NCBI GenBank assembly: GCA_035544015.1
Contig: DATKIP010000093.1
Location: 1,156 to 65,155, forward strand
DNA length: 64,000 nt
DNA from: Candidatus Saccharimonadia bacterium
GTDB taxonomy: Bacteria > Patescibacteriota > Saccharimonadia > UBA4664
Reading direction: 5' to 3'
Numbering within the stretch: the stretch's first letter is position 1; each line of letters starts with the position of its first letter. Below the pieces are notes generated by a model. The model saw only the letters and a program-made list of their open reading frames with translations, ran no database searches and was not told the DNA's origin. Both the position numbers and the translations under genes were made by a program. Positions 2,919 to 17,311 of the stretch are shown in pieces.

Positions 2919-3004
2919 GCGCGAGTGGTGGAATGGTAGACACGCTAGATTCAGGTTCTAGTGCCGGCAACGGTGTGGAGGTTCGACTCCTCTCTCGCGC
3001 ACCA
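2919..3004 (+). tRNA. tRNA-Leu (anticodon CAG), class II with long variable arm, CCA encoded
   Basis: Acceptor GCGCGAG/CTCGCGC, anticodon stem CTAGA/TCTAG with loop TTCAGGT, T-loop TTCGACT. The 3' end was anchored using the ORF-track ATG at 2933, which lies inside the tRNA. Confidence 0.85.
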
Positions 3005-3033
3005 AGGTCTGATCCAATTTATTCCGTGAATAG

Positions 3034-3061
3034 AAAAGCCCCAGAAATTCTGGGGCTTTTC
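3034..3061. terminator. Rho-independent terminator hairpin, bidirectional, between tRNA-Leu and the convergent gene ending at 3092
   Basis: AAAAGCCCCAG-AAATT-CTGGGGCTTTT forms a perfect 11-bp stem flanked by A/T runs on both sides. Confidence 0.6.
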
Positions 3062-3091
3062 TATAACCCTGACGCCAGCGGCGCCCTTGCG

Positions 3092-3508
3092 CTAGCCGCA
3101 ATTACCCCATGGACTGGTGTAGCTTGTGCCACCATGGTAGCCAAAGAATCGCACGCATTTACCCTTGCCATACTGCTTAACTGGACCGGCATAGTATTTG
3201 TAGTCGCCGGTGTCATAGGCCCAGCTTGAACCACTCGTTTGCAACCCTGCCGTGGTACGGGTTGGGGTGCCGACTTGTGTCGTCTTAATAGTAACCACAC
3301 AATTATATGAGCCGTTGTAAAGTTGATAAACTACAGCGCCACTAAGTGCATGTGAACGTTGTACGGTGTAGCCAGAACCACAAACCCCTTGAGGCGTGTA
3401 GGGATTGGCCGCGGCTTGTGCCGGTCCCGCCAACAAGGCAGCGGGGAGAACAGACATGAGGGCGCTTATACCCAAAGTCCTTAGCTTGGTAAATGCGCGT
3501 ATCTTCAT
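3092..3508 (-). CDS. small secreted cysteine-containing protein (signal peptide), hypothetical
   Basis: 138 aa with N-terminal signal peptide ...LLAGPAQAAA and four Cys. A strong SD (AAGGAGG, 4 nt before the ATG) is seen on the reverse complement at about 3513-3530. Confidence 0.6.
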   Translation of the reverse strand: MKIRAFTKLRTLGISALMSVLPAALLAGPAQAAANPYTPQGVCGSGYTVQRSHALSGAVVYQLYNGSYNCVVTIKTTQVGTPTRTTAGLQTSGSSWAYDTGDYKYYAGPVKQYGKGKCVRFFGYHGGTSYTSPWGNCG

Positions 3509-3640
3509 GGATACCTCCTTTTTTATATTTGCAAAGAGTATGGCAAAACTTGCAGCAAATCATAGTGACTATCTCCAAAAATCTGGCACATCTCACCGAG
3601 GCTTGATGTTCGGGTGAGTCCATTCTGATACAATTTAATC

Positions 3641-4198
3641 ATGGCACGCATCCAAGACATGGTTTGGCAGTCGCTCGCCTGGCCCAGCACCGTGGTGCAC
3701 CGGCAGGTCGTCACCGCTCAGGCGATCGAGGAACACGGCATTGCCGCCGGCAAGACCGATCAGGGCGCCGTGTTCGCATACGAGTATAAATTGCTGCTCA
3801 CGCCCGCGTGGGAGATCAAGAGCGCCAATATCACGTCGCTTTTGGATGAACGAACCATAGCCCTGCATCACGACGCCGGCACCTGGCGTGACGCCGCGGG
3901 CAAAACGCTTCATGAATTCGACGGCATACCCTACATCGATCTCTCTTTTTCGCCCTTCACCAACACGCTGCCCATCAAGCGCGCCCCATTTGTGGACGAC
4001 GAAGAACTCACCATCGACACGCTCTACTTCGACGAAAACAGCTTCTCGCTCACAAAAGTGCAGCAGCGCTACCGCCGGCTCGGCCCCAAAAAATATCGCT
4101 ACCAAGACGTCGAAACGCCCGATTTCACCGCCAATATCGATGTAGACGACGACGGACTCGTCACCGATTACCAACACCTCTTCGCCCGAATGCGCTAA
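3641..4198 (+). CDS. hypothetical protein (possibly glycolipid-binding-like); likely leaderless
   Basis: 185 aa with good codon bias. TACAAT lies at about 3629-3634, 6 nt before the ATG, and there is no SD. Confidence 0.55.
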   Translation: MARIQDMVWQSLAWPSTVVHRQVVTAQAIEEHGIAAGKTDQGAVFAYEYKLLLTPAWEIKSANITSLLDERTIALHHDAGTWRDAAGKTLHEFDGIPYIDLSFSPFTNTLPIKRAPFVDDEELTIDTLYFDENSFSLTKVQQRYRRLGPKKYRYQDVETPDFTANIDVDDDGLVTDYQHLFARMR

Positions 4199-4246
4199 GC
4201 TTGTCCTCAGATGCTTTTGGTTCTATCGTAATAAGGTTTTATTGAA

Positions 4247-6022
4247 TTGAAAGGAGCCCTCGTGGCCACGTTCCTTGCCCGATGGCGTTCCGCCTTGCCG
4301 ACCCGTCGATTCCCGGCTGGCAAATTAGTCGCCTCCACCGCCATGCTGTCGCTCCTGCCCACGCTCGCCAGCTTCTTGGGCAACCGCTACCAAGTGTCGG
4401 TGCAAGACCTATTCCTGCCGGTAATCGTCGACCTCCTTACGGCTGCCCTGGTGGTGGCCGTATTTTACCGCTCGTGGCGCAAAGACGCGCTGGCCGCCGG
4501 TCTCGCGGCTGGGCTTTTGGTGCTAGTGCTGGTTTCAAATTACGACGGCCGCCTGAGCACGATCTCCCCGATCTTTGACGCCGTTTCACCGTTTGTGGGC
4601 GTCGGGTGGGTCTACAGCTTGGTGTTTATGGTGCTACTCGGTGCATTGGCAGCGGCGATCGGGCGTCTCGCGAGTCGCCTCGTGCGGCTGCGCGGTTGGT
4701 CTTCGCGCGAAATCGTTCGCGCCGCCACCATCGCGGTGAGCGTCACATTCGCCATCCAGGTCGCAACCGTCGTCCAGGAGTTCGCCGTTGAATGGCCACA
4801 ATTCTTCTACAAAGCCCCGGCCTTAACCACCACAGCAGCCGCCACCCCCGCCAGCCCCAAGCCCGATATTTACTACATTGTGCTCGATCGCTACGCCAGC
4901 CAAGACGTGCTAGCGAGCCAGTTTGGCTTCAACAACGACGAATTCATCCAATTTCTCAAAGACAACCACTACTACGTCAACCCGTCCGCTCACAACAATT
5001 ACCCGTACACCACCATGTCGATAGCCTCCACGATGAGCGCCGACTACAACACATCCATCGTGCAGCAATTCGAAAACTCCACGAAACAAACGGTCATTCC
5101 CTTCAATGAAACCATCCGCCAAGCCCCCGTGGCGCAGACCCTGCAAAAGCTGGGCTATAGCTACAATCTCGTCGGCAATTGGTACGAGACCTCAAATGAA
5201 TCCCCTGTCGCCGATCATACCTACCAGCAAACCGGCATTTTCACGCTACTCGGCCACACGTTTACTCTCGATAATTTCCCCAAGATCATCCTGAGCCAGA
5301 GCATCTTCAGCCGGTTTATTCAAGCTAGCCCCAGTATCGGGCAGTTTCAGGCCCTGCGTTACACCAATTTGGGCGATGTCGACATGGCGCACTACCAGCT
5401 CCAAACACTCAAGGATCTCGCGGCCGCACCTCCCGGCGGGCGCTTCATTTTTGCGCACATTTTGGTCCCCCACGACCCTTACAACTTTAATGCCGACGGC
5501 TCAATCTCCACCACTACCAACAGCGACAACATAGGCGCACCGGTGAAGCAGAAATATCTCGGCCAGGTGCAATACATTAATGGCCAAATGAAGACCATTT
5601 TGAGCAACATCCAATCCGCCAGCCGAGGTCAGGCCGTAGTCGTACTGCAATCGGATGAGGGGCCGTACCCCGCGCAGCTCAACGACGAAGATTTCGATGC
5701 CAACGATCTGGACGGACTCCTGCAGGCCGGCGACATGCGGCAGTGGTCCGACGCCAACCTGCAGATGAAGTTTGGAAATTTGGCCGCCTACCACATCCCG
5801 GCCGCCGATTGGACTCGCGACACCGACGCGGCCGACTCCGTAAACATCTTTCGGCTGATTCTCAATTCATATTTTGGCGCCGGCATGTCATATTTGCCCG
5901 ATTGCTATTACGCGTATCCCAATGGTCGGGACAAACCACTCAGCTTCACCAGCATCACCACCCGCTTGACCGGCGCGGCCGAGGATAGCCGCTGCGGCGC
6001 CAATGGCGGCCTGAAGCCTTAG
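4247..6022 (+). CDS. membrane-anchored sulfatase/alkaline-phosphatase-superfamily protein, LtaS/phosphoglycerol-transferase-like
   Basis: 591 aa with N-terminal multi-TM region. The C-terminal domain carries IYYIVLDRYASQ...HILVPHDPY motifs typical of LTA-synthase/sulfatase folds. TTG start at 4247; alternative GTG at 4262 preceded by AAGGAG (4251-4256). Confidence 0.65.
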   Translation: MKGALVATFLARWRSALPTRRFPAGKLVASTAMLSLLPTLASFLGNRYQVSVQDLFLPVIVDLLTAALVVAVFYRSWRKDALAAGLAAGLLVLVLVSNYDGRLSTISPIFDAVSPFVGVGWVYSLVFMVLLGALAAAIGRLASRLVRLRGWSSREIVRAATIAVSVTFAIQVATVVQEFAVEWPQFFYKAPALTTTAAATPASPKPDIYYIVLDRYASQDVLASQFGFNNDEFIQFLKDNHYYVNPSAHNNYPYTTMSIASTMSADYNTSIVQQFENSTKQTVIPFNETIRQAPVAQTLQKLGYSYNLVGNWYETSNESPVADHTYQQTGIFTLLGHTFTLDNFPKIILSQSIFSRFIQASPSIGQFQALRYTNLGDVDMAHYQLQTLKDLAAAPPGGRFIFAHILVPHDPYNFNADGSISTTTNSDNIGAPVKQKYLGQVQYINGQMKTILSNIQSASRGQAVVVLQSDEGPYPAQLNDEDFDANDLDGLLQAGDMRQWSDANLQMKFGNLAAYHIPAADWTRDTDAADSVNIFRLILNSYFGAGMSYLPDCYYAYPNGRDKPLSFTSITTRLTGAAEDSRCGANGGLKP

Positions 6023-6040
6023 CTGGTATCATTTTGGCTG

Positions 6041-6328
6041 ATGGTAAGTTTTTCCGGAGATGAACTCCTCACGCTAATCTTTCAGGTGGTGCTGGCCGCG
6101 TTATCGATCACACTAATGTACTTCGCGTTAAGGACGGGAAGATCCCTCGCTGTCTACAAGATCAACCTCGGTTTGTTGATAGTTGTCCTATTCGGTTTCG
6201 CAGTGCTCGCTCCCGATGATTTTAGTCTGAATGAATGGCCGGCGATACTCGCCTTTATGGCTGTAATTGTATCGCTGTTCGCCATCCTTGTAGGTAGGCG
6301 CCGCAAACGTGGAAGCCAACGGCCTTAA
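6041..6328 (+). CDS. small 3-TM membrane protein, paralog 1 of a 5-gene tandem family
   Basis: 95 aa. YFALRTGRSLAVYKINLGL is shared with paralog 5. Basic C-terminal tail RRKRGSQRP. Confidence 0.55.
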   Translation: MVSFSGDELLTLIFQVVLAALSITLMYFALRTGRSLAVYKINLGLLIVVLFGFAVLAPDDFSLNEWPAILAFMAVIVSLFAILVGRRRKRGSQRP

Positions 6329-6348
6329 ATGCTGAAGGATAATAAATA

Positions 6349-6645
6349 ATGTCCGACGGCTTCACATTACCGGTTGCGTTTGCGCTTATTGCGGGCGTAC
6401 TTGTACCGACGCTATCAATAATTCTCGTATTCGTTTCGATACTTTTCAAACGAGTATGGCCGTACGCAGTATGCCAAGGCGCACTAGTCGTTGCATTAAC
6501 ATACTTGGCCGTATATTGGATGCAAACGGATATTGATCCGTGGAATAAGTATTGGTCAAACGTCTTTGTTTTGGTTGGTTGGATTGCGGTGCTACTAGCA
6601 ACCGGCATATTTTTTGCCAGAAGGAATCGCCAAACTCGGCATTAG
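6349..6645 (+). CDS. small 3-TM membrane protein, paralog 2
   Basis: 98 aa with three hydrophobic helices and basic tail RRNRQTRH. AAGGAT lies upstream of the ATG. Confidence 0.5.
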   Translation: MSDGFTLPVAFALIAGVLVPTLSIILVFVSILFKRVWPYAVCQGALVVALTYLAVYWMQTDIDPWNKYWSNVFVLVGWIAVLLATGIFFARRNRQTRH

Positions 6646-6649
6646 CAGC

Positions 6650-6955
6650 ATGGGAGCAAACTTCACCAATCTCGAATCAGCCCTCTTGCTGGCTATGATT
6701 TCCCTGCCTGCACTATCGATGTTGCTAGTGATCGTCGCCCTATTCATCAAGAAGACGCTCTGGCCCTTCGCGGGCACTGCTGGCGTGGTTTTATTGGTGC
6801 TTGTATGCTTGGCTTCGCCATGGCAGCAGGATTTTTCAGTAAGTAGCCTCGCATGGCATCAATACTGGACCGCTTGGCCAGTGCAACTGGGCTGGGTGGC
6901 TATTGTGCTGTCGATAGCGATAATACTTCGGAGAAAGCCTCGAGCACAGAGATAG
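6650..6955 (+). CDS. small 3-TM membrane protein, paralog 3
   Basis: Internal ATG (MGANFTNLE...) of track ORF 6614..6955, chosen to remove overlap with paralog 2. Basic tail RRKPRAQR. Confidence 0.5.
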   Translation: MGANFTNLESALLLAMISLPALSMLLVIVALFIKKTLWPFAGTAGVVLLVLVCLASPWQQDFSVSSLAWHQYWTAWPVQLGWVAIVLSIAIILRRKPRAQR

Positions 6956-7237
6956 TTGAAACAGGATATGGATATCGGTACGTACACATTTATTATTTGG
7001 CTCTTGCTGCCTGGGTTGTCGATTCTCTCGATCTATTGCGCCACAATCAGCCAGGTTAAGCTCGTCCCTTACTTTGTCACGGTTGGGCTAACCCTCATTA
7101 CGCTTATAGGCTTGGGGATGCAGGATGGTTTCGGCCTAGACTATTGGCAGGCCGGGACAACGGTGCTTGGCTGGCTGTCGGTAGGAATTTCAAGTGTTAT
7201 GGTGCTCGCAAAGAAGTTCCGCGTGCCGCGAAAATGA
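6956..7237 (+). CDS. small 3-TM membrane protein, paralog 4
   Basis: 93 aa, TTG start (alternative ATG at 6968). Tail KKFRVPRK. Confidence 0.5.
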   Translation: MKQDMDIGTYTFIIWLLLPGLSILSIYCATISQVKLVPYFVTVGLTLITLIGLGMQDGFGLDYWQAGTTVLGWLSVGISSVMVLAKKFRVPRK

Positions 7238-7518
7238 CCCAGAATTTCACTGACCTCGATTGGCTGCTGTACTTTACCACATGGATCTTTTTGCCAGCAC
7301 TCTCCGCTGCGATGGTGTACTTCGCCTTAAAACCGGGAAAATCGCTTGGTGCTTACAAAATAAATCTCGGTCTCGTAGCGATCATATTGCTGGCGCTAAT
7401 ACCTGCGCTAGATTCAGCCATCGGCTACTGGAACGCGGGCTCGCCAAAACTTGCGCTGCTAGCCATCGGACTGTCTTTGGCTATATTGCTCATAAGAAAG
7501 TTCCGCACACGGCACTAA
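7234..7518 (+). CDS. small 3-TM membrane protein, paralog 5
   Basis: Internal ATG (MTQNFTDLDW...) overlapping the paralog 4 stop as ATGA. YFALKPGKSLGAYKINLGL is nearly identical to paralog 1. Tail RKFRTRH. Confidence 0.55.
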   Translation: MTQNFTDLDWLLYFTTWIFLPALSAAMVYFALKPGKSLGAYKINLGLVAIILLALIPALDSAIGYWNAGSPKLALLAIGLSLAILLIRKFRTRH

Positions 7519-7543
7519 TCGCATAGAATCGACCCAAACTGAA

Positions 7544-7584
7544 GCCGCGGAGGGTTAGATCGTCGGGGTCCAACCCTCCGCCGC
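7544..7584. terminator. stem-loop between convergent genes (possible bidirectional terminator)
   Basis: GCCGCGGAGGGTT-(15 nt loop)-AACCCTCCGCCGC, a roughly 13-bp stem with one mismatch. No T-run. Confidence 0.35.
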
Positions 7585-7615
7585 AGCCGCTAGTCAGCCT
7601 CGGCTGGCCTCGCCG

Positions 7616-8068
7616 TTACTCGGATGGCGGTTCCGCCGGGAAGCGTTTGATGTAGGTATACGCTCGCTCCCAGGGTAGGTATGGAAAATACTCCGGTGGT
7701 CGGTGGTTGTTCTTGAGGGCGTAGCTCGGCAGACCCTCCTCCACTACTATCCGCTCGTACTCCCAGCCAGGGTGTTTTTGCCGATACGCCGCACCGTATA
7801 CTTCGAGTAGTTCTTCCTCGCGGGTCCAGCCGTTGAAGTCAAACACCCACACCCCATTGCTGGCGTACATATGGTGACCTGGCTGCTCTCCCCTGGGCTT
7901 GATATGGATGAGCTTGTAGCCTTCCCCGGTATGCAGCTCCAAGAACATATGCGCCAGAATATGGCATGCCCCGGCCGCAAAGAAAGCCCTATCCTCCCGC
8001 TTCCAGGCCAAAAATGGGTCCCGGTACTCTTCGGGAGTACGCTCGTACACGATTCCGGGTTGGTACAC
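7616..8068 (-). CDS. hypothetical protein
   Basis: 150 aa with good coding bias, convergent with the small membrane-protein array. No domain recognised. Confidence 0.5.
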   Translation of the reverse strand: MYQPGIVYERTPEEYRDPFLAWKREDRAFFAAGACHILAHMFLELHTGEGYKLIHIKPRGEQPGHHMYASNGVWVFDFNGWTREEELLEVYGAAYRQKHPGWEYERIVVEEGLPSYALKNNHRPPEYFPYLPWERAYTYIKRFPAEPPSE

Positions 8069-8157
8069 GATGTTCCCTCCTTGGTTGGCTGTGAGTTCTC
8101 ACAAAATAATGTTAGCATAGTCTTGCCAAACATAAACCGAACATATATCATAGACCC

Positions 8158-8757
8158 ATGAAGCAATTCGGCCTCAATCTCGATGATATGATCCAGTTCT
8201 CTCAGCTCATGCTGCGGCTGCAGGCTGTCGTGCGGGCCATCCATGTGCCCGGCCGCGACATTAAGGAAAATGACGTCGAGCATAGCTATCATTTGGCGAT
8301 GATGGGCTGGTATCTCAATATCTCCGGCCGGCTTGGCTACAACACCGACAGCCTGGTGCGCTATGCGCTCATTCACGACCTGGCCGAAGCCTACGCCGGC
8401 GACGTCAGTGCCCTCGATGCCGCCGGACGCGTGGGCAAACGGGAGCGCGAAGCCGCCGCCCTCGAGCGGATCGACGCGGAATTTCCGCTCGCCGAAGAGA
8501 TTATTGCCGCCGTCCACCGCTACGAAACCCTGGCCGACGACGAGGCCAGGTTCATCTACGCCCTCGATAAGCTCATGCCCATGGTCATGGTGTATCTGGC
8601 CGACGGCCGTACCTGGCGCGAGGAACACCAGGGTTTCAGCGTGATGCACGAGTGCCAGGCACCCAAAATCGCCGTATCTGAGCCGGTCAGCCAGCTCTAT
8701 GAGCAGCTGCGCCTGATGCTCGTGCATCGCCCTCAGCTCTTCGGCGCGGCCGCTTAG
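8158..8757 (+). CDS. HD-domain phosphohydrolase, YfbR-like 5'-deoxynucleotidase family
   Basis: H...ENDVEHSYHLAMM...LIHDLAEAYAGD matches the HD_3 / YfbR motif arrangement. Confidence 0.65.
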   Translation: MKQFGLNLDDMIQFSQLMLRLQAVVRAIHVPGRDIKENDVEHSYHLAMMGWYLNISGRLGYNTDSLVRYALIHDLAEAYAGDVSALDAAGRVGKREREAAALERIDAEFPLAEEIIAAVHRYETLADDEARFIYALDKLMPMVMVYLADGRTWREEHQGFSVMHECQAPKIAVSEPVSQLYEQLRLMLVHRPQLFGAAA

Positions 8758-8803
8758 CCGTAAGCATTTTGTAATTTTGCGGCGGCCACCGTATCATAAG
8801 GAC

Positions 8804-10429
8804 ATGAAGCAGGCCTACCTCAAAGAACTCGCCAGCCGCCTCCTCGGCAGTGTCACCGATACCGCCGACGCCCTCGAGCATTTTTCCACCGACCAAAGCA
8901 TTTTTACGGCTACCCCCACAGCGGTCATTTATCCGCAAAACACCGCCGACGTGCGCAAAACCGTGCAATTTTCCGCCGAGCGCGCTGCCGCCGGCCGGCC
9001 CTTGCCGCTCGTGCCACGCGGCAAGGGCAGCGATCAGAGTGGGGGAGCAGTGGGGGAGGGCTTGCAGGTAGTGTTTCCCGCGCACCTGAACAAATTGCTG
9101 CGACTCGACCGCGACGCCGTTACCGTGCAGCCCGGCATTCTGTTTCAGACCATGCAGCAAACCCTCTACACCCACGGCCGGTTCGTGGCCCAGCAGCCGG
9201 CCGGCGCCGAATACTCCACGGTCGGCGGCCTTGTGGCCACCGGCTCGGCCGGGCAGTCCGCGGTCAAGTACGGCTCCCTGCGCGAGGCCGTGCGAGGCCT
9301 GAAGGTGGTGCTAGCCGACAGCTCGCTCATCGAGACCAGCCGCATCAGCGCCCGCGAGCTCAATCGTCGCAAGGGCTTCACCACCCTCGAAGGCGAAATC
9401 TACCGCCGTGTCGACAGCCTGCTGCTCGACGGCGCCGACCTCATCAAACGCCATCACCTCACCGGCGTGCCCAACACCGCCGGCTACGATCTCTGGTCGG
9501 TGCGCCGCCCCAATGGCTCGTTTGACCTCACGCCGCTGTTTATCGGCTCGCAGGGCACGCTCGGTATCATCACCGAAATCACGCTGGCCACGCTGCCCTA
9601 CGCTCCTCGCACCACGCTAGCCGTGGGCTTTTTCGCCACCGTGGCCGGCGCCGGCGAGGCCGTAGCCCGTCTGCGCAGCCTCGGCCCCTGCGCCATCGAG
9701 CTGGTCGACCGCCATGTGCTCGATTACTACCGCGAACTCCGCCCCGATGACCTCACTGGCCTCGTCCCCGACCCCACGCCGGCCATCACCCTGCTCGTCG
9801 AATTCGACAACCACTCGCAGCTGGCCCAAAAAATCCGTAGCACCCGCGCCGAGCGCATAATGCGCCGTCACGGTGCCACGGTGCGAATCTCGACCGACCC
9901 GGTCGAGCAAGTCGCGCTCTGGAAGATTCGCCGCAGCACCGTCGCCACCTGGCTGTCGCATGGTTCCAAGCACGCGCTGCCGTTTATCGAAGACGCCGCG
10001 GTGCCGGTGGAGAAGTTGCCCCAATTCATCGACAAAACCTACAAACTCCTGCGGCAGCACGACCTCGAGCCCGCGCTCTGGGGCCACGCCGGCAGCGGCA
10101 ACCTGCGCCTCCAGCCTCGTCTCGACCTCTCCAAGAAAAAAGACGTCGACAAACTCTTCACCCTCGCCCGCGAATACGCCGAACTCGTCATATCGCTCGG
10201 CGGCACGCCCTCGGCGTCCCATGGCGACAACCTGTTGCGCGCTACCTTCCTGCCCAAGCTCTATGGCGAAGAATTATACGAAATTTTGGCTTCAGTAAAG
10301 CATATATTCGACCCCCAAGATATCTTCAACCCAGCCCAGCTCACCGGCGCCACCGAAGACTACGCCCGCGCCCATCTGCGCACCCATTTCACCGCCAGTC
10401 AGCTGCACGATTACCACGTTTACACCTAG
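8804..10429 (+). CDS. FAD-binding oxidoreductase (FAD_binding_4 / GlcD-D-lactate dehydrogenase family)
   Basis: PCMH-type FAD-binding signature: PTAVIYPQNTADVRKTV...PLVPRGKGSDQSGGAVG. ATG at 8804 preceded by TAAGGAC; the track ORF begins at TTG 8777. Confidence 0.75.
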   Translation: MKQAYLKELASRLLGSVTDTADALEHFSTDQSIFTATPTAVIYPQNTADVRKTVQFSAERAAAGRPLPLVPRGKGSDQSGGAVGEGLQVVFPAHLNKLLRLDRDAVTVQPGILFQTMQQTLYTHGRFVAQQPAGAEYSTVGGLVATGSAGQSAVKYGSLREAVRGLKVVLADSSLIETSRISARELNRRKGFTTLEGEIYRRVDSLLLDGADLIKRHHLTGVPNTAGYDLWSVRRPNGSFDLTPLFIGSQGTLGIITEITLATLPYAPRTTLAVGFFATVAGAGEAVARLRSLGPCAIELVDRHVLDYYRELRPDDLTGLVPDPTPAITLLVEFDNHSQLAQKIRSTRAERIMRRHGATVRISTDPVEQVALWKIRRSTVATWLSHGSKHALPFIEDAAVPVEKLPQFIDKTYKLLRQHDLEPALWGHAGSGNLRLQPRLDLSKKKDVDKLFTLAREYAELVISLGGTPSASHGDNLLRATFLPKLYGEELYEILASVKHIFDPQDIFNPAQLTGATEDYARAHLRTHFTASQLHDYHVYT

Positions 10430-10457
10430 CTCGTATTAATCACAAGGAGACCCCGCC

Positions 10458-10802
10458 GTGCTCGTATCAAACTTACTCCGCCGTCACAAAACCCCCGCCC
10501 CCACCTTCGCCCCCGGTCTGTTTCTGGGCCTGCTCGTAGTCTTCACCCTGCTCGGCCAAAGCAAGCCGACCGTTGGCCTGGTAGGCATTGGCACCACGCT
10601 CATCGTCACGGGCACGCTCATCATCCTGAACCGCCAGCGCATCTGGGACGATTACCGCAAGGGCTATCGCAAAAGTAAAGGCCTCGCCGCCCTCTGGGCC
10701 AAACCCAACCCCGTGTATTACACCCTCAACGTGCTCTTTTTATGGCCGTTTATCGTCTTCTTGGGCATCGTTTGCCTGTGGGCCGCCTACATGCTAAGCT
10801 AA
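10458..10802 (+). CDS. small membrane protein, hypothetical
   Basis: 114 aa with three TM helices. GTG start preceded by AAGGAG (about 10444-10449). Confidence 0.5.
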   Translation: MLVSNLLRRHKTPAPTFAPGLFLGLLVVFTLLGQSKPTVGLVGIGTTLIVTGTLIILNRQRIWDDYRKGYRKSKGLAALWAKPNPVYYTLNVLFLWPFIVFLGIVCLWAAYMLS

Positions 10803-10822
10803 CGCAGTTACAACCCAGCTCT

Positions 10823-10906
10823 GCGCGAGTGGTGGAATGGTATACACACTAGTCTGAGGGACTAGCGCCGCAAGGCTTGGAGGTTCGACTCCTCTCTCGC
10901 GCACCA
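10823..10906 (+). tRNA. tRNA-Leu (anticodon GAG), class II
   Basis: Same acceptor (GCGCGAG/CTCGCGC) and D/T arms as the CAG isoacceptor. Anticodon stem CTAGT/ACTAG with loop CTGAGGG. Confidence 0.85.
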
Positions 10907-10983
10907 AGGTCTAATCCAATTTATTACAGATAGGAATGCTTCCGAATTTCGGGGTATTTTTATTTTTTGCCAAGTCCACTTAG

Positions 10984-12396
10984 CTACAGCTCGCTATTCG
11001 CGGGAGCTGTAGCTGCCTTATATTCACGGCGGCCGCCAGTAACTGCCACGATTACGCTAAACGTAGCCAGCGCTAGTACGAGCAAAAGCGCAAAACGATA
11101 CCGCCCCAGCCCAATGGCGGTGCTACTGGCAAACAAGGAAGCGACGACTGCCAGGATGATGCCGCTGCCAATCTGGAAAGCCGAGAGCACAATGCCCGAT
11201 GCTAAACCGTGCTCAGACTCACGCGTTTGGGCCAGCCCCTTGATGTTGATCGATGGAAAAGCCATCGCAAAACCTAATCCTATAAATAGCTGAAGGATAG
11301 CCACCAATACCAGGTTCGGAACAGAATCGAGCAGTATAAACCACGCAAAGCCAAGCGTTTGCAAGAGTAACCCGGCAATAATTAACGGTATCGTGCCAAT
11401 ACGGAAGCTAAGCTTGGCGAATTTGGTGGCGCTCAGTGCTACAATGCTGCCTCCAAACGCAAACGACAATGCCGACTGGAATGGCGACCAACCGAGTACG
11501 TTTTGCAAATATAGTACGGCCACAAATTGAAACGCCACGTAGTTGCCTTGCATCAGGAAGGCCAGCAGTGACGCGTAGCTCAGGCCTGGTCGCCGGAAGA
11601 TAGCTAGGGGTAGCAGCGGTGCAGCGGCACGCGTATGTTCGTGGTGCAAAAACAATCCGAGCAGCGCCAGTCCTGCGCCAAGCGGCCCAAGTGCGGCCAT
11701 CGAAATCCAGCCATAGCTGGCAGCCTGGGCAGCACCAAACACGATTAACAGCAGCGCAACCGTGCCCATAACCGAGCCCGGCAAGTCAAACCGCTTACTT
11801 TTTTGGCTTGGCTTGTCGCGCTCTAGAGCCAAGGCGCCAATAGCTACTACTACCAGGGCAATAGGTGCCGGCAAAAGCATTGTGTAACGCCAGCTGAGGT
11901 TGCCTACCAGCCCCCCAATAACCATGCCGAGCGCAAAGCCTGCCGCCCCGGTAGACGAAAATACACCCAAGGCATGGGTACGCTTAGCTGGCTCCTGATG
12001 CAGACCCAGTAGCAGCGACAGCGCCGCTGGGCCGGTAAAGCCGGCGCAGATGCCCTTGATAATGCGTGCCGCTATGAGCAGCCAAGGTTCGCTTGTCAGG
12101 CCGGCAACCAGGCTAGCCAAGGCAAACAACAACATGGAAAGCAAAAATACCCGCCGCCGTCCAAACAGATCCGCCACCCGGCCACCCAGAAGCAGGAATC
12201 CACCGTAGCCTAGGACGTAGCCAGATACAATCCATTGCAGGCTCTGAGCATCCATGCCCAAAGCGTGCTGAATTGCTGGTAGTACGACCGCAGTGCTTGA
12301 TATGTCCATGCCATCCAAAAACTGTGCAATACAAAGCAGCGCCAAAATGCCGCCGGTCGACAGTGCCAGCTGAGGCTTAGCCAGAACAGTACTCAT
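10984..12396 (-). CDS. MFS transporter, DHA2/EmrB-like drug:H+ antiporter (14 TM)
   Basis: The N-terminal region LDGMDISSTAVVLPAIQHALG...GRVADLFGRRRV shows typical MFS motifs. The second ATG at 12396 is preceded by GAGGGA; the first ATG is at 12411. Confidence 0.8.
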   Translation of the reverse strand: MSTVLAKPQLALSTGGILALLCIAQFLDGMDISSTAVVLPAIQHALGMDAQSLQWIVSGYVLGYGGFLLLGGRVADLFGRRRVFLLSMLLFALASLVAGLTSEPWLLIAARIIKGICAGFTGPAALSLLLGLHQEPAKRTHALGVFSSTGAAGFALGMVIGGLVGNLSWRYTMLLPAPIALVVVAIGALALERDKPSQKSKRFDLPGSVMGTVALLLIVFGAAQAASYGWISMAALGPLGAGLALLGLFLHHEHTRAAAPLLPLAIFRRPGLSYASLLAFLMQGNYVAFQFVAVLYLQNVLGWSPFQSALSFAFGGSIVALSATKFAKLSFRIGTIPLIIAGLLLQTLGFAWFILLDSVPNLVLVAILQLFIGLGFAMAFPSINIKGLAQTRESEHGLASGIVLSAFQIGSGIILAVVASLFASSTAIGLGRYRFALLLVLALATFSVIVAVTGGRREYKAATAPANSEL

Positions 12397-12507
12397 ACTT
12401 TTATCCCTCATTTACATTTTACCCACCTACATATACGCAAAAGCTCTCTTTATTGCAAGAACTGACTAGTTTGTTATATACTAACCAATTAGAGAGTCAT
12501 ATATTTA

Positions 12508-12870
12508 ATGAACAACCCTCAAAACTATAAGCCCGAGTACGCACTCGAATTAATCGGCGGCAAATGGAAGATGCCCATTTTATGGCGGCTCGACCGGCCC
12601 GAGCCCTGGCGCTACAGTGAGCTCAAGCGTGATCTGGGCAACGTTTCGCACAAAATGCTATCGCAGCAGCTCAAGGAACTAGAGCGCGACGGCTTTATCA
12701 CGCGCTACGCCTACCCTGTCGTGCCGCCCAGGGTCGAATATGCACTCACAGATAAAGGACGCTTGACCTTGCCTGCGCTCCAGGCGCTTTGTCAGCTCAA
12801 TGCAGCTTTGCAAGATAGAGAGTGTAACCCTATAGTCATCGCGCCTTCCGGTGAGGTTGTCCTCGGTTAA
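12508..12870 (+). CDS. HxlR-family transcriptional regulator (divergent from the MFS pump)
   Basis: The wHTH region CP/ELIGGKWKMPILWRL...YSELKRDLGNVSHKMLSQQLKELERDGFITR is diagnostic for HxlR. Confidence 0.8.
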   Translation: MNNPQNYKPEYALELIGGKWKMPILWRLDRPEPWRYSELKRDLGNVSHKMLSQQLKELERDGFITRYAYPVVPPRVEYALTDKGRLTLPALQALCQLNAALQDRECNPIVIAPSGEVVLG

Positions 12871-13020
12871 TGCAAGGCCTGTCGCACGTCTTCTCCGAAG
12901 GCTTGGAGAAGTTGGGTATCTGGCCGGATGGCGTTTGCTTCAATAGACATCAATCTTTCAAAAGTAAAGCCCAAATCCGTCATTTTACGGCAGAACAATG
13001 TCAAACTTGCCTCTATCGAG

Positions 13021-13048
13021 TTCCACCTAACGTCGCATTGGCGCACCA
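13021..13048. repeat. intergenic repeat family, copy 1 (TTCCACCTAACGTCGCATTGGCGCACCA)
   Basis: The same 27-30 nt also occurs at about 13691-13720 and 14467-14496, with a degenerate copy at about 50548-50570. It is followed by an ACAGATAGGAA module and a hairpin/T-run. Confidence 0.6.
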
Positions 13049-13145
13049 TTTTTGAATAACAGATAGGAAGGCTCTCAAGATGCGAGGCCTTTTTATTTTG
13101 AATCGCATTTCTAATCTGTTGCATTGGTTTGATATACTTTAAAAA

Positions 13146-13640
13146 ATGCAAAGAATACTCATTGTTGGCGTCAGCGGGACCGGCAAGACACGGCTGGCTC
13201 GGCGCATGTCTATCAAGCTGCACATCCGGGCAGTTTTACTCGACACGATATTTTGGAAAGAGAACTGGCAAGAAGAAGATCCAAAGGTTGTCGAGTCAAA
13301 AATCCGCCGCGTTATTCAAAAGGATACATGGATTATCGAAGGCTACATTGAGCCATTGGGTGCTGAGCGGGTTAAAAGAGCGGGCAAAGTAATTTACTTG
13401 GATTATCCAGGTTATATTGCATTTTGGGGAGGCCTGAGGCGTTGGCGTGAATTTCGGGGCAAGACGCGCCCTGAAATGCCTGCGGGAAATATTGAAGCGT
13501 TTGGCTGGAAGTTCCTTATGACGCTACTTAGGCGTGACGAGCGACCGGAAATAGAGGCAGCCGTACGAGGGCACGAAGACAAAGTTATCCGCCTAAAATC
13601 TTGGCGGGCAACAGAGGCCTATCTTAATCAGGTGGCTTGA
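13146..13640 (+). CDS. P-loop NTPase, AAA/adenylate-kinase-like (topology-modulation protein family)
   Basis: Walker A IVGVSGTGKTRLARR at the N-terminus, 164 aa. Confidence 0.65.
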   Translation: MQRILIVGVSGTGKTRLARRMSIKLHIRAVLLDTIFWKENWQEEDPKVVESKIRRVIQKDTWIIEGYIEPLGAERVKRAGKVIYLDYPGYIAFWGGLRRWREFRGKTRPEMPAGNIEAFGWKFLMTLLRRDERPEIEAAVRGHEDKVIRLKSWRATEAYLNQVA

Positions 13641-13690
13641 AGTCGAGATCCTTTAATTTTGATACAGCAACAAAATACTGGGCTCAATCT

Positions 13691-13740
13691 GGTTCCACCT
13701 AACGTCGCACTGGCGCACCATGGTCTGATCCAATTTATTC
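13691..13740. repeat. intergenic repeat copy 2 plus a 27-nt near-identical copy of the tRNA-Leu 3' end and flank (GCGCACCA-TGGTCTGATCCAATTTATT)
   Basis: GCGCACCAAGGTCTGATCCAATTTATT at 2997-3023 (tRNA-Leu-CAG 3' end plus flank) reappears here with one mismatch. A similar string follows tRNA-Leu-GAG at 10899-10925. Confidence 0.6.
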
Positions 13741-13820
13741 TTTTTGTAGTAATTCCATATCTGTTTTTTTTGGTAAAAGAACTCTTAGCTTCGCTTAGGT
13801 AGTTTGATAATACTCATCTT

Positions 13821-13878
13821 GGTACCGATGTAGCGAGAAATTGACATTCTCGTACCATTTTGATACCATTTTGGTACT
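13821..13878 (+). promoter_or_regulatory. putative promoter/operator of the toxin-antitoxin operon
   Basis: TTGACA (about 13841-13846), 17 nt spacer, TACCAT, then ATG 9 nt later. Overlapping tandem direct repeats TACCATTTTGATAC / TACCATTTTGGTAC and a third GGTACC upstream look like an antitoxin operator. Confidence 0.4.
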
Positions 13879-14157
13879 ATGACTACCAAGTTACAAATCC
13901 CGATCGATCAAGACGTTCGCGAAGGCTTTGAGCGCCGCGCACACAGCTTAGGCTTTGATTCTGCTCAAGCCTATCTCCGCGTGTGGATGAAGGCCGAAGC
14001 CGATGGGCGCAAGCTCGACTTTGATGGCAAAGCCGTGGTACTCAGTCCCGAAGCCAATGCCCGCTACGAGCAAATGATCGTTGATCTCGACGAAGAAAAA
14101 AAGTCAGGTAAGGCCAAGGAATTTACCTCTGTGGAAGACTTTATGAAAGACCTGTAG
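13879..14157 (+). CDS. putative antitoxin of a type II TA pair
   Basis: 92 aa acidic protein immediately upstream of a RelE-family toxin, with a 3-nt gap. Confidence 0.55.
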   Translation: MTTKLQIPIDQDVREGFERRAHSLGFDSAQAYLRVWMKAEADGRKLDFDGKAVVLSPEANARYEQMIVDLDEEKKSGKAKEFTSVEDFMKDL

Positions 14158-14160
14158 GGC

Positions 14161-14427
14161 GTGAAGCCTATACGCCGCCACCGTAAGTTTGAAAAGAACT
14201 TTCAAAGTCGCATTTCCCCGAATCCAAAGCTCAGAAAGCAATTCATAGCACGTTTAGAGTTATTCAAGGAGGGTGTTCGCGATTATCCCTTGGATGACCA
14301 TCCACTTGCCGGGACGATGAAAGGGTTGCGTGCGTTTTCAATTGGCGGCGATTTGCGGGTCGTGTATCGAGAGACCGAAGAGCATTATGAATTTCTCGAC
14401 GTCGGCTCGCATAATCAGGTATATTGA
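14161..14427 (+). CDS. type II toxin, RelE/YafQ (ParE/RelE superfamily) mRNA interferase
   Basis: 88 aa with the characteristic pattern DYPLDDHPLAG...GLRAFSIGGDLRVVYRE...F-DVGSHNQVY. Confidence 0.7.
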   Translation: MKPIRRHRKFEKNFQSRISPNPKLRKQFIARLELFKEGVRDYPLDDHPLAGTMKGLRAFSIGGDLRVVYRETEEHYEFLDVGSHNQVY

Positions 14428-14466
14428 GTAGCTTCTTGTAGGGCAGCAAAAATGCTGTCGTAAATG

Positions 14467-14496
14467 GTGTTCCACCTAACGTCGCATTGGTGCACC
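14467..14496. repeat. intergenic repeat copy 3 (GTGTTCCACCTAACGTCGCATTGGTGCACC)
   Basis: Followed by ATTATTACAGATAAGAAAG and a hairpin CGCCCCAGGAATGGGCGC plus T-run. A related module follows tRNA-Val. Confidence 0.55.
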
Positions 14497-14583
14497 GAGA
14501 GATTATTACAGATAAGAAAGCGCCCCAGGAATGGGCGCTTTTTTGTTTGATCTAAATTTCGCATCTGCTGCTATGATGAAAGC

Positions 14584-15114
14584 ATGACTGAAGATTTTAC
14601 AGACTTGCTAGCGGTTGGCGGTAAAGCAAACTCACTTGGCAAAGTGAACGAAGTTATAGCGCTTGTACTAAACGACCGAAACCGACTCGATGAATTGTAT
14701 AGTCGTCTATTCAATGAAGACGCATGGATACGCATGCGCGCTGCAGATGCGCTCGAAAAAATCTGCCGCCAGCACCCCGACTGGCTCCTGCCGTATATAG
14801 ACAAATTCGCCAGCGACCTAGCTACCAGTAGCCAACCGTCCATTCAATGGCATCTGGCGCAGATCTATCGTGCAGTTGACCTAACGACTGAGCAGAAACA
14901 CTTCGCCATAAACTGGCTTAAGCATTTACTTGCTACCAAAGATGTCGACTGGATCGTTGCAGCAAATGCCATGGATACATTGGCTCAATTTACCAAAGAC
15001 GGTTCTTGTTCCGTGGCCGATATCGTTCCATTGCTTAAGATTCAGCAAAACCATAAATCGAACGCGGTCATTAAGCGTGCCAACAAACTAATTACGGAGC
15101 TGCCAGCGAAATAG
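14584..15114 (+). CDS. hypothetical alpha-helical (HEAT-like / DNA-alkylation-repair-like) protein
   Basis: 176 aa, helical repeat character. Weak recollection of the AlkD-like family. Confidence 0.45.
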   Translation: MTEDFTDLLAVGGKANSLGKVNEVIALVLNDRNRLDELYSRLFNEDAWIRMRAADALEKICRQHPDWLLPYIDKFASDLATSSQPSIQWHLAQIYRAVDLTTEQKHFAINWLKHLLATKDVDWIVAANAMDTLAQFTKDGSCSVADIVPLLKIQQNHKSNAVIKRANKLITELPAK

Positions 15115-15120
15115 TTTGGG

Positions 15121-16191: not shown

Positions 16192-16333
16192 AATAACCTT
16201 AAATACCGTAAAGCATCATAGCATTTTATATAGCTCGACTTTTGAGCATAGTGGCGCATTTTAGCTTGAGTTCGCCCTAATCTGGAACAAGGCAATTGAA
16301 CTACCGTAGCGAAAGCGCTATGGTGACATCACT

Positions 16334-16990
16334 ATGACTGCCTCCCTCACATCGGCACGCAGGCGCAGCAACGGCTTCACGCTGGTCGAACTCGTGATCG
16401 TGATTGCCATTTCCGGGAGCCTGTTGCTCATCGCCTTTCTCGGCCAGGGCCAGTTGCGCAACCAGGCGCGTTTCGATTCTAGTATCAATAAGGTGATGCA
16501 AGATATCGCCTACGCTCGCAATTTTTCCCTAGCCAACGTGAATGAGTACGGCCTCGGCAATAACCGCACGTCGCAGCTCGCCGGCGCCGTGCTCGAATTC
16601 GACAACAACCACCCCGACAACAAGCTCACCGAACTCGAACCCGTTTACGCCAACACTGATCCCGCTACGGGCGCTATCTCCCACTCCAATCTACCCGCCT
16701 CCGGCAGCTGCCCGGCCATGGCCGACAACGAATGTTTCGAAATCTTTTTCAACTCGCCCGACCCACTGCAGCTCACCACCGCCACCGCCGGCGAGATAGC
16801 CTTCCTCAATACCGACGCCGGCCTTACCGTGTGCAGCCACCTGGGCGGCGGCTTTATGACCATCGACACCATGTGCTCGTCGGCCAACCCGGCCTTTGGC
16901 CACCCCATCAATGTCGTGCTGCGCGGCCTCACCGGCCTCACCGCCACCATCCAGATCGACCCCAACACTGGCCTCGCCAAGCGGCTCTAA
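16334..16990 (+). CDS. type IV pilin / pseudopilin (prepilin N-terminal methylation motif)
   Basis: The N-terminus ...RRRSNG|FTLVELVIVIAISGSLLLIAF is the canonical class III signal (G-FTLVE). Confidence 0.75.
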   Translation: MTASLTSARRRSNGFTLVELVIVIAISGSLLLIAFLGQGQLRNQARFDSSINKVMQDIAYARNFSLANVNEYGLGNNRTSQLAGAVLEFDNNHPDNKLTELEPVYANTDPATGAISHSNLPASGSCPAMADNECFEIFFNSPDPLQLTTATAGEIAFLNTDAGLTVCSHLGGGFMTIDTMCSSANPAFGHPINVVLRGLTGLTATIQIDPNTGLAKRL

Positions 16991-17052
16991 GCGAGCGCCG
17001 GGCTCCGCGCGGCTTGCCGCCCGCCCCGCATTTGCGTATAATTTCGGGGCTT

Positions 17053-17303: not shown

Positions 17304-17311
17304 CTGCTCTC

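What the first reader, a model, noticed from the sequence alone, without database searches (positions are those of the whole stretch)
2997..14496. Mosaic intergenic repeat family re-using the tRNA-Leu 3' end and flank: possible att-like scars around a small accessory segment
The 27-nt string GCGCACCA(A/T)GGTCTGATCCAATTTATT occurs at the 3' end of tRNA-Leu(CAG) (2997-3023), tRNA-Leu(GAG) (10899-10925, one G-to-A change) and again at 13713-13739, where there is no tRNA. A second motif, TTCCACCTAACGTCGCA(T/C)TGG(C/T)GCACC, occurs at 13021, 13693 and 14469, with a degenerate copy near 50549. An ACAGATAGGAA-hairpin-T-run module follows several copies. The segment between tRNA-Leu(GAG) and the 13.7 kb copy carries an MFS pump, its HxlR regulator and a P-loop NTPase, and is followed by a RelE toxin-antitoxin pair. 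This pattern is typical of a decayed integrative element with a tRNA 3'-end direct repeat, although no integrase is present.
Basis: seen in the sequence. Interest (0 to 1): 0.6.

Follow-up and report, generated by a model that had tools for sequence, protein, structure and literature searches.

The report
Gene-cassette array at tRNA-Leu integration site
Downstream of a leucine tRNA gene in a soil Saccharimonadia (CPR) bacterium lie three small accessory gene cassettes, each ending in the same junction scar left by site-specific integration; it is a new example of a known process, and it exposes a recombinase–target pair in a hard-to-engineer bacterial group.

Summary
The 27-nt string occurs at 2997, 10899 and 13713. 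Motif 2 occurs at 13020, 13692 and 14469. Only the "degenerate copy" near 50549 is not significant.

The window is a soil Saccharimonadia contig. Its backbone, SBP gene–tRNA-Leu(CAG)–…–FAD oxidase–tRNA-Leu(GAG)–…–tRNA-Val, is syntenic in relatives. The DNA after each tRNA-Leu is variable: the 6.1 kb after tRNA-Leu(GAG) here is 1.1 kb in a relative.

Motif 2 is not REP-like. I found 22 copies in 12 independent loci. Wherever a tRNA was present in the fetched DNA, every copy lay downstream of, and co-oriented with, a tRNA-Leu. Each copy closes a 0.7–2 kb cassette. The toxin–antitoxin cassette sits at tRNA-Leu(GAG) here but at tRNA-Leu(CAG) in other genomes.

Relatives carry intact 3–5 kb elements at these same tRNA-Leu genes. 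These elements encode a large serine recombinase, and their far junction has the same design as motif 2: GGTTC lies 24 nt before GCACCA, against 19 nt in the tRNA. This 5-bp shift is the published attP-versus-attB signature of serine integrases.

Best reading: an array of integrase-less integrative cassettes, with motif 2 + GCACCA + trailer as attR junctions. The enzyme assignment is inferred. No recombinase lies in the window.

The parts
2919..3004 (+). tRNA-Leu(CAG). This is target site 1 (attB-like): GGTTC lies 19 nt before GCACCA.
   Evidence: An intact serine-recombinase element occupies the same backbone site (after the SBP gene) in L036.
2997..3023 (+). 27-nt string, copy 1: the last 8 nt of the tRNA plus a 19-nt trailer (aggtctgatccaatttatt).
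3024..3064 (+). Trailer terminator hairpin (agcccca-gaaatt-ctggggct, then a T-run).
   Evidence: read from the sequence; same design as the trailers in L008/L020
3065..8157 (.). Variable region 1, behind tRNA-Leu(CAG). It holds a 138-aa ORF (-), a Glycolipid_bind protein, a 591-aa ORF and small ORFs. There is no motif 2 copy.
   Evidence: The tRNA is about 80-110 nt from the FAD oxidase gene in L005/L006. L020 holds different genes here. Pfam results.
10823..10906 (+). tRNA-Leu(GAG). This is target site 2 (attB-like) and heads the cassette array.
10899..10925 (+). 27-nt string, copy 2 (1 mismatch).
10926..10966 (+). Terminator module 1: ACAGATAGGAA, hairpin, T-run.
10967..13048 (+). Cassette A: MFS transporter (10984-12411, -), HxlR regulator (12508-12870, +), and a conserved 3' end of about 90 nt.
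   Evidence: the 3' end is shared with L011 and L013 at 91-93%
13020..13048 (+). Motif 2, copy 1 (P-arm-like GTTCCACCTAACGTCGCATTG + GCGCACCA). This is attR-type junction 1.
13059..13098 (+). Terminator module 2.
13049..13720 (+). Cassette B (672 nt): P-loop NTPase at 13146-13640 (AAA_18; below-cutoff match to 'DNA topology modulation protein' models).
13691..13720 (+). Motif 2, copy 2. This is attR-type junction 2.
13713..13739 (+). 27-nt string, copy 3: the tRNA-Leu 3' 8 nt plus the tRNA-type trailer, with no tRNA. It is followed by a trailer that has lost its hairpin (13740-13790).
13721..14497 (+). Cassette C (777 nt): promoter-like site at 13841-13869, RelB/DinJ-like antitoxin at 13879-14157, YafQ/RelE toxin at 14161-14427.
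   Evidence: The same module, with a sharp left edge at TTGACA, is found in L012, L014, L015, L016, L018 and L020.
14469..14497 (+). Motif 2, copy 3 (variant ...TGGTGCACCG). This is attR-type junction 3.
14508..14551 (+). Terminator module 3 (ACAGATAAGAA, hairpin, T-run).
14584..17012 (.). Rest of variable region 2: HEAT-like ORF at 14584-15114, 356-aa ORF with a weak GGDEF match at 15121-16191 (-), pilin-like ORF at 16334-16990. The backbone resumes at tRNA-Val (17053-17129).
   Evidence: the L020 alignment resumes at window 17013

Best explanation
The region behind tRNA-Leu(GAG) is a tandem array of small integrative elements that no longer carry, or never carried, their own recombinase. Each cassette is one gene or operon with its own promoter.

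Each cassette ends in an attR-type junction with three parts. The first is an element-derived arm: about 45 nt plus GGTTCCACCTAACGTCGCAYTG, which is motif 2. The second is the crossover region inside the acceptor-stem GCGC. The third is the target-derived right half: GCACCA of tRNA-Leu plus a tRNA-type trailer and terminator. The trailer is aggtctgatccaatttatt in copy D, and a different linker followed by ACAGATAGGAA-hairpin-T-run in the other two.

Every integration into the 3' end of tRNA-Leu rebuilds the tRNA end and pushes the previous junction downstream. This produces co-oriented repeats and the mosaic of linkers. tRNA-Leu(CAG) shares the same 3' end and trailer and is a second, equivalent target.

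The most likely enzyme is a large serine recombinase of a family that is abundant in Saccharimonadales and integrates at tRNA-Leu genes, acting in trans.

Shown here: the repeats, the association with tRNA-Leu, the variability of the region, the movement of one module between the two tRNA-Leu sites, the existence and location of the recombinase elements, and the 5-bp spacing shift. Inferred: that motif 2 is bound by such a recombinase, the exact crossover position, and whether the cassettes are still mobile.
For: (1) Motif 2 is tied to tRNA-Leu. I found 22 copies in 12 independent loci. In the 8 loci where the fetched DNA includes a tRNA (window, L008, L010, L012, L015, L016, L018, L020), all copies lie downstream of a tRNA-Leu(CAG or GAG) and are co-oriented with it. 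They are spaced 0.7-1.2 kb apart.

(2) The backbone is syntenic and the tRNA-flanking DNA is variable.

(3) The toxin-antitoxin module is at tRNA-Leu(GAG) in the window and L012 but at tRNA-Leu(CAG) in L016, L018 and L020. It is 80% identical to the L020 copy, while the backbone is 67-75% identical.

(4) The trailer modules are 84-86% identical between species whose backbone is 65-73% identical.

(5) Intact 525-527-aa serine recombinases (Resolvase domain; homologs also carry the Recombinase and Zn-ribbon domains) abut the 3' end of tRNA-Leu(CAG) in L036 and tRNA-Leu(TAG) in L037, and a 310-aa C-terminal form abuts a tRNA-Leu-like 3' end at the end of contig L030. Decayed copies abut tRNA-Leu(GAG) in L006 and tRNA-Leu(TAG) in L033.

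(6) L036 reads SBP gene, tRNA-Leu(CAG), a 5.2-kb recombinase element, an attR junction, then FAD oxidase. This is the occupied form of a site that is empty in L005/L006.

(7) The attR arms of those elements (GGTTCAAGCTGAATGTCTTCAGCT|GCACCA + terminator) have the same layout as motif 2. GGTTC is 24 nt before GCACCA in all such arms and in all full-length motif 2 copies (one L014 copy carries a short insertion), and 19 nt before it in the tRNA-Leu genes apart from one L008 gene that is 1 nt shorter. A 5-bp inward shift of the zinc-ribbon-domain motif in attB relative to attP is the published hallmark of serine-integrase sites (PMC3783163).

(8) GC content drops across the cassettes.

(9) A published analogue exists: Dehalococcoides ssrA islands form tandem arrays with a conserved motif just upstream of each direct repeat, use a CcrB-like serine integrase, and include some islands without an integrase (PMC3146451).
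Against: No recombinase gene was found in the window or within 10 kb of any motif 2 array.

No element was found that carries both a recombinase and a motif 2-type junction.

Motif 2 and the recombinase-element arms are only about 53% identical without gaps. The motif 2 profile does not detect those arms, so the link rests on layout and spacing, not on significant sequence homology.

Serine integrases do not normally reuse attL or attR, so repeated integration at one tRNA needs an extra assumption, for example an element arm that mimics the native trailer.

T-arm-like fragments (GGTTCAAGTCCTCTC...) lie between trailer and cargo in many junctions, most clearly in L008, L015, L020 and L016. The simple model does not predict them.

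The left flank of the toxin-antitoxin module differs in all six genomes, and in three of them it directly follows another gene with no junction. Later rearrangement or homologous exchange must therefore also have occurred.

No strain-level polymorphism was seen: L001 and L002 are 100% identical to the window.
Confidence: 0.68

Rival explanations
1. The junctions are integration scars as described, but a tyrosine recombinase made them. This could be a classical tRNA-3'-end integrase or the host Xer system acting on a dif-like site, as for IMEX elements or Acinetobacter pdif modules.
For: Most tRNA-targeting islands use tyrosine integrases (general knowledge; reviews opened). The junction plus trailer spans about 230 nt, which is the size of a tyrosine-integrase attP. 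The reverse complement of motif 2 plus CCA can be written as 11+6+11 nt and starts with GGTGCGC, like E. coli dif; this comparison is from memory and was not tested. Motif 2 contains a small imperfect palindrome, GTCGC-ATTG-GCGcAC.
Against: No tyrosine recombinase was seen next to any array. The only recombinases found at these tRNA-Leu genes are serine recombinases. The 5-bp shift of GGTTC between tRNA and element arm is specific to serine-integrase sites. All motif copies are in direct orientation, unlike the alternating pdif sites.
Confidence: 0.12
2. No site-specific recombinase is involved. Motif 2, the tRNA end and the terminator form a conserved intergenic 3'-end module. Modules are gained, lost and shuffled by homologous recombination, for example after natural transformation, using the repeated 100-nt modules and the tRNA genes as homology anchors.
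For: The trailer modules are long enough (about 100 nt at 84-86% identity) to support homologous recombination. The left flanks of the toxin-antitoxin module are inconsistent, and some modules lack a junction. Terminators clearly function for the co-oriented cargo genes. No recombinase is present in cis.
Against: This does not explain why the repeat starts exactly inside the tRNA-Leu acceptor stem. It does not explain why an unrelated 22-nt arm with GGTTC displaced by exactly 5 bp is conserved across species. It does not explain why recombinase-bearing elements at the same tRNAs end in the same layout. The motif 2 region has no conserved RNA structure and no Rfam match.
Confidence: 0.13
3. A genome-wide REP-, MITE- or terminator-type repeat family that only happens to cluster here.
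For: The units are short, intergenic, associated with a hairpin and T-run, and mosaic.
Against: There are three copies in 64 kb, all within 1.5 kb. Every copy elsewhere that has a tRNA in the fetched DNA is behind a tRNA-Leu. All copies share one orientation; there are no terminal inverted repeats and no inverted copies of motif 2.
Confidence: 0.03
4. Decayed tandem duplicates of tRNA-Leu genes (tRNA pseudogenes).
For: The copies end in GCGCACCA and begin with a T-loop-like GGTTC.
Against: ARAGORN and the Rfam tRNA model find nothing there at E <= 1. The 17 nt between GGTTC and GCGCACCA, and the 45 nt upstream, are unrelated to tRNA-Leu and conserved in their own right. The spacing is 5 nt longer than in the tRNA in every full-length copy.
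Confidence: 0.03

Closest known systems
Dehalococcoides ssrA-specific genomic islands (McMurdie et al. 2011, PMC3146451)
   Same: Both are tandem arrays of small islands behind a single small-RNA gene. Each island is bounded by a direct repeat of the gene's 3' end. A conserved element-derived motif lies immediately upstream of each repeat. The integrase is a CcrB-like large serine recombinase placed next to attL on the reverse strand. About half of the islands lack the integration module and were proposed to be cis-mobilizable.
   Different: The target here is tRNA-Leu (three isoacceptors) rather than tmRNA. The repeated tRNA part is only 6-8 nt, plus trailer. The cassettes are much smaller (0.7-2 kb against about 12 kb). 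No integrase lies anywhere in the window array. The host is a CPR bacterium.
CIMEs and tandem accretion of ICE/IME relatives (Pavlovic 2004; Bellanger 2011; review PMC5704250)
   Same: Both are elements that keep attL/attR but have lost their recombination and transfer genes. They accumulate in tandem at the 3' end of a target gene through successive site-specific integration.
   Different: CIMEs derive from conjugative elements in Firmicutes and mostly use tyrosine integrases. Here the cassettes are single-gene sized, and no conjugation or mobilisation genes are seen.
Large serine recombinase att sites (A118/LI integrase model, Rutherford et al. 2013, PMC3783163); SCCmec-type composite islands
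   Same: In both, an outer recognition motif is shifted by 5 bp between attP and attB half-sites, and the crossover falls in a short central sequence. From general knowledge, SCC elements also pile up in tandem at one target-gene 3' end.
   Different: No binding or recombination data exist here. The central dinucleotide is not resolved (somewhere within GCGC). The right half-sites show little dyad symmetry.
Integron cassette arrays / CALINs
   Same: Both are co-oriented arrays of 0.5-1 kb single-gene cassettes, each closed by a conserved recombination-site-like sequence. Both include toxin-antitoxin cassettes, and the cassettes carry no recombinase.
   Different: There is no IntI. There is no attC-type folded site; an RYYYAAC match exists but has no GTTRRRY partner, and there is no conserved hairpin. 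The cassettes carry their own promoters and terminators, and the array is anchored on a tRNA gene.

Membership tests
tRNA-targeted integrative element / genomic islet | Lies immediately 3' of a tRNA gene, with a direct repeat of the tRNA 3' end at the distal boundary | tested here: met
   tRNA-Leu(GAG) ends at 10906. GCGCACCA recurs at 13041 and 13713, and GCACCG at 14492. The repeat is short (6-8 nt of tRNA); in copy D it extends 19 nt into the trailer.
tRNA-targeted integrative element / genomic islet | Absent from the same site in related genomes, with atypical composition | tested here: met
   In L020 the interval from tRNA-Leu(GAG) to tRNA-Val is 1.1 kb, against 6.1 kb here. Gene content also differs in L012, L015 and L018. 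GC is 0.46-0.49 against 0.55-0.67.
tRNA-targeted integrative element / genomic islet | Encodes its own integrase | tested here: not met
   No recombinase domain was found in any tested window ORF, and there was no tblastn hit to the serine recombinases.
CIME / tandem accretion array | Several co-oriented att-type repeats bound segments that lack recombination and transfer genes | tested here: met
   There are three junctions in the window. L013 has 3, L015 has 2 and L016 has 5.
CIME / tandem accretion array | Excision or mobilisation in cis or trans by a related element's recombinase | not testable with these tools
   This needs read-level or experimental data. The only indirect evidence is the toxin-antitoxin module found at two different tRNA-Leu sites.
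Large serine recombinase attachment sites | The same outer motif sits in the attP and attB half-sites, displaced by 5 bp | tested here: met
   GGTTC to GCACCA is 19 nt in the tRNA-Leu genes (18 in one L008 gene). It is 24 nt in all full-length motif 2 copies (one L014 copy carries a short insertion) and in the attR arms of the four recombinase elements. The rule is from PMC3783163.
Large serine recombinase attachment sites | A cognate recombinase is integrated at the same target | tested here: inconclusive
   Recombinases abut tRNA-Leu(CAG/GAG/TAG) in L036, L006, L037, L033 and L030. Their arm sequence differs from motif 2, and none was found together with motif 2.
Large serine recombinase attachment sites | Identical central dinucleotide in the partner sites; recombination activity | not testable with these tools
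   Identity with the tRNA begins at GCGCACCA or at GCACCA, depending on the copy. The centre cannot be fixed.
Integron (IntI + attC cassettes) | Adjacent intI; attC with paired R''/R' cores folding into a hairpin | tested here: not met
   There is no tyrosine recombinase. RNAalifold finds no conserved structure. Folds of whole junctions, on either strand, pair only the terminator.
REP / MITE dispersed repeats | Many dispersed intergenic copies, palindromic or with terminal inverted repeats | tested here: not met
tRNA pseudogene | Recognisable cloverleaf or tRNA covariance-model match | tested here: not met
Xer/dif-dependent modules (IMEX, pdif) | A 28-bp XerC-spacer-XerD site; alternating orientation for pdif modules | not tested
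   The only basis is a resemblance recalled from memory. All copies are in direct orientation.

The most novel reading that the evidence does not exclude
The motif 2 cassettes are not dead scars. They would form a working, integron-like gene-capture platform in CPR bacteria. In this reading, minimal elements made of one gene plus an attachment site are excised and re-inserted in trans by chromosomally or element-encoded large serine recombinases. They move at any tRNA-Leu 3' end, shuttling defence, toxin-antitoxin and efflux genes between the tRNA-Leu sites and between species.
Probability: 0.25. Interest if true: 0.75.

Novelty: new member of a known kind. Interest (0 to 1): 0.5.

Why it matters
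The finding identifies tRNA-Leu genes as the main hot spots of gene flux in soil Saccharimonadia, a group whose mobile elements are barely described. It also pairs them with an abundant family of large serine recombinases and with short, well-defined attachment-site sequences. Serine integrases need no host factors, so a natural recombinase–tRNA-Leu site pair could become a site-specific integration tool for CPR bacteria, which are very hard to manipulate genetically. The miniature cassettes also give a test case for whether serine recombinases can drive integron-like cassette exchange.

Tried and rejected
1. Structured RNA. Rfam at E <= 1 found only the two tRNAs. RNAalifold on 13 copies found no conserved structure.

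2. attC-like folding of whole junctions. Only the terminator pairs.

3. Phage origin. Three scans of viral contigs with motif 2 and trailer patterns found nothing.

4. Coding remnant on the opposite strand. An open frame (VRQCDVRWN...) and 'KLGF' strings looked HicA-like. However, the ORF is absent at two of the three window copies, and the conservation is at the DNA level. I dropped this idea.

5. The IS481 transposase fragment next to a motif copy in L013. I judged it cargo or an IS insertion, not the cassette recombinase.

6. The window ORF at 3092-3508 (-) as a recombinase remnant. It shows no similarity.

7. The copy at 50552. It is not significant.

8. A recombinase in the rest of the window. 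I found only an IS1595 transposase, at 30344-31237.

9. Linking motif 2 to the recombinase-element arms by profile search. There was no significant hit; the link is by layout and spacing only.

10. The exact-protein look-ups for the FAD oxidase and MFS ORFs failed, probably because the start codons differ.


Full report
**Observation**

ARAGORN finds tRNA-Leu(CAG) at 2919-3004 and tRNA-Leu(GAG) at 10823-10906. The 27-nt string is at 2997, at 10899 (1 mismatch) and at 13713. Motif 2 is at 13021, 13693 and 14470. Neither was ever matched in shuffled sequence.

ACAGATAGGAA occurs at 10926, 13059 and 14508, each time followed by a hairpin and a T-run. Folding shows that the purine stretch pairs with the T-run, so these are intrinsic terminators with extended stems.

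The "degenerate copy" at about 50549 is not supported.

**Source and backbone**

The window is 100% identical to a 152-kb soil metagenome contig. Its relatives are Saccharimonadia (CPR) genomes.

Relatives share this backbone: SBP gene, tRNA-Leu(CAG), …, (HD_3) FAD oxidase, a gene of about 114 aa, tRNA-Leu(GAG), …, tRNA-Val. The DNA directly behind each tRNA-Leu differs from genome to genome:
- In L005 and L006 the tRNA-Leu(CAG) lies about 80-110 nt from the FAD oxidase gene. The window has 5.1 kb there.
- In L020 (backbone 67-75% identical) tRNA-Leu(GAG) and tRNA-Val are 1.1 kb apart. In the window they are 6.1 kb apart.
- GC drops to 0.46-0.49 across 12.7-15.0 kb.

**Motif 2 is a cassette end, not a dispersed repeat**

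A profile of the motif plus 45 nt upstream finds only the three copies in the 64-kb window. A metagenome scan and the contexts of toxin-antitoxin homologues bring the total to 22 copies in 12 independent loci.

Wherever a tRNA lies in the fetched DNA (8 loci), every copy is downstream of a tRNA-Leu(CAG or GAG) and co-oriented with it. Arrays occur elsewhere too: L013 has 3 copies, L014 has 2, L015 has 2, and L016, from the complete genome CP064960.1, has 5. The spacing is 0.7-1.2 kb.

Cargo seen in these cassettes includes the RelB/YafQ pair, an NTPase, MFS+HxlR, a C39-like peptidase, DUF1697, RidA and NUDIX proteins. A Shedu SduA gene lies within the L016 array.

The typical order is tRNA (or motif 2 + GCACCA), then trailer with terminator, often a T-arm-like fragment, then promoter, cargo and the next motif 2.

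**Evidence for movement**

The toxin-antitoxin module has 219 homologues at 76-92% identity. It lies behind tRNA-Leu(GAG) in the window and L012, but behind tRNA-Leu(CAG) in L016, L018 and L020.

Its homology block has a sharp left edge at the TTGACA promoter box. On the right it runs through motif 2 to the CCA and, in five of seven genomes, about 11 nt further. It is 80% identical between the window and L020, more than the backbone. The trailer modules are likewise 84-86% identical between species whose backbone is 65-73% identical.

**The recombinase**

An ORF abutting the 3' end of tRNA-Leu(GAG) in L006 belongs to a family whose members carry Resolvase, Recombinase and Zn-ribbon domains. 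Full-length proteins of about 525 aa are abundant in Saccharimonadales, with 875 hits at E <= 1e-20.

Their genes end inside the 3' end of tRNA-Leu(CAG) in L036, tRNA-Leu(TAG) in L037 and L033, and a tRNA-Leu-like end in L030. A more distant member ends in tRNA-Met in L032.

L036 reads SBP gene, tRNA-Leu(CAG), a 5.2-kb element (recombinase, Mrr-like nuclease and others), a junction, then FAD oxidase. This is the occupied form of the site that is empty in L005/L006, and it is the same site as window 2919-3004.

**The link to motif 2**

The far junctions of four recombinase elements read …aaaGGTTCAAGCTGAATGTCTTCAGCT|GCACCA + terminator. Motif 2 reads GGTTCCACCTAACGTCGCATTGGC|GCACCA + terminator.

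In both, GGTTC starts 24 nt before GCACCA. In the tRNA-Leu genes it starts 19 nt before. The distance distribution over all loci has just these two peaks.

For serine integrases, the zinc-ribbon-domain motif occupies half-site positions 16-24 in attP and 11-19 in attB, a shift of 5 bp (PMC3783163). I therefore read motif 2 as the element-derived P arm. Motif 2 + GCACCA + trailer is then an attR junction, with the crossover inside the acceptor-stem GCGC.

Copy D (13691-13739) is the cleanest example: a P arm followed by the unaltered right half of the tRNA-Leu site.

**Limits**

- No recombinase lies in the window or within 10 kb of any motif 2 array.
- No element combines a recombinase with motif 2.
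- The two arm families are only about 53% identical, and a profile search does not connect them.
- Reuse of one tRNA by serine integrases needs an extra assumption.
- The T-arm-like fragments between trailer and cargo are unexplained.
- The variable left flanks of the toxin-antitoxin module show that other rearrangements also occurred.
- Tyrosine/Xer recombination and purely homologous exchange remain possible.
- REP-like repeats and tRNA pseudogenes are effectively excluded.

**Comparison with known systems and verdict**

The closest described system is the Dehalococcoides ssrA island array. It has tandem islands, a conserved motif upstream of each direct repeat, a CcrB-like serine integrase, and integrase-less members. 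CIME/accretion arrays are the general class. Integron membership fails.

This is a new member of a known kind. It is of moderate interest for CPR mobile-element biology and as a possible integration tool.

Noticed in passing
L016:5101-5264, 8053-8195, 8818-8962 (complete genome CP064960.1): Non-coding inserts of about 85-150 nt sit directly after a tRNA end or a motif 2 + CCA end. Each is closed by an 18-19-nt direct repeat of the tRNA-Leu 3' end (ACTCCTCTCTCGCGCACCA). Two of them share a homologous module of about 90 nt. They look like miniature integrative elements or deletion remnants of a second element type with a T-loop crossover.
   Followed up: partly
L008:1085-1110 and 1931-1960 (-); L015:9352-9370; L020:9383-9400; degenerate in window 13767-13786 and 10967-10982: T-arm-like fragments (GGTTCAAGTCCTCTCTCGC / ...CTCTGG) lie between the trailer terminator and the next cassette's promoter. 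They end within 1-2 nt of the inferred crossover. They may be old attL-type junctions; the simple model does not explain them.
   Followed up: partly
L004:3683-3718 and 4047-4097: In another Saccharibacteria MAG, tRNA-Leu(GAG) is preceded by a duplicate of its own 5' 35 nt. About 145 nt after it comes a duplicate of its 3' 18 nt plus the trailer terminator. This is a further integration footprint at the same tRNA.
   Followed up: no
L032:8001-8984: A more distant member of the same serine-recombinase family (P0142, 52% identity) ends inside a tRNA-Met gene. It lies next to a type I restriction-modification system and an AAA_15/21 ATPase. The family has therefore diversified to other tRNA targets.
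   Followed up: no
window 17053-20300: tRNA-Val(TAC) is also followed by genes that a relative lacks. The window has PadR, a pentapeptide-repeat protein and an ABC transporter pair; L020 has two unrelated ORFs. This is possibly a third tRNA-anchored variable region.
   Followed up: partly
window 29406-31237: An IS1595-family transposase (30344-31237, -) lies next to a Bro-N domain protein (29406-30347). This looks like a separate mobile-element or phage-related insertion.
   Followed up: no
window 22342-26414 and 34988-39934: There are three tandem paralogous genes of about 370-378 aa with Thr/Gly/Ala-rich repeats, about 75% identical over 300-nt blocks. A 1648-aa repeat protein lies further on. 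They are probably surface proteins.
   Followed up: no
L013:49-624: The C-terminal part of an IS481-family transposase ends 13 nt before a motif 2 unit. It occupies the position of a cassette cargo.
   Followed up: partly
window 10937-10965, 13070-13098, 14519-14551 and homologous sites in L012, L015, L016: The terminator hairpins have entirely different stem sequences, while the flanks ACAGATA(A/G)GAA and TTTTTTGTTT are conserved. This suggests selection on structure, or independent origins of each trailer.
   Followed up: no
window 39945-40931 (-): A class A-type beta-lactamase family protein (Beta-lactamase2, E = 6e-36) lies next to the tRNA-Phe/tRNA-Gly pair at 41018-41176.
   Followed up: no
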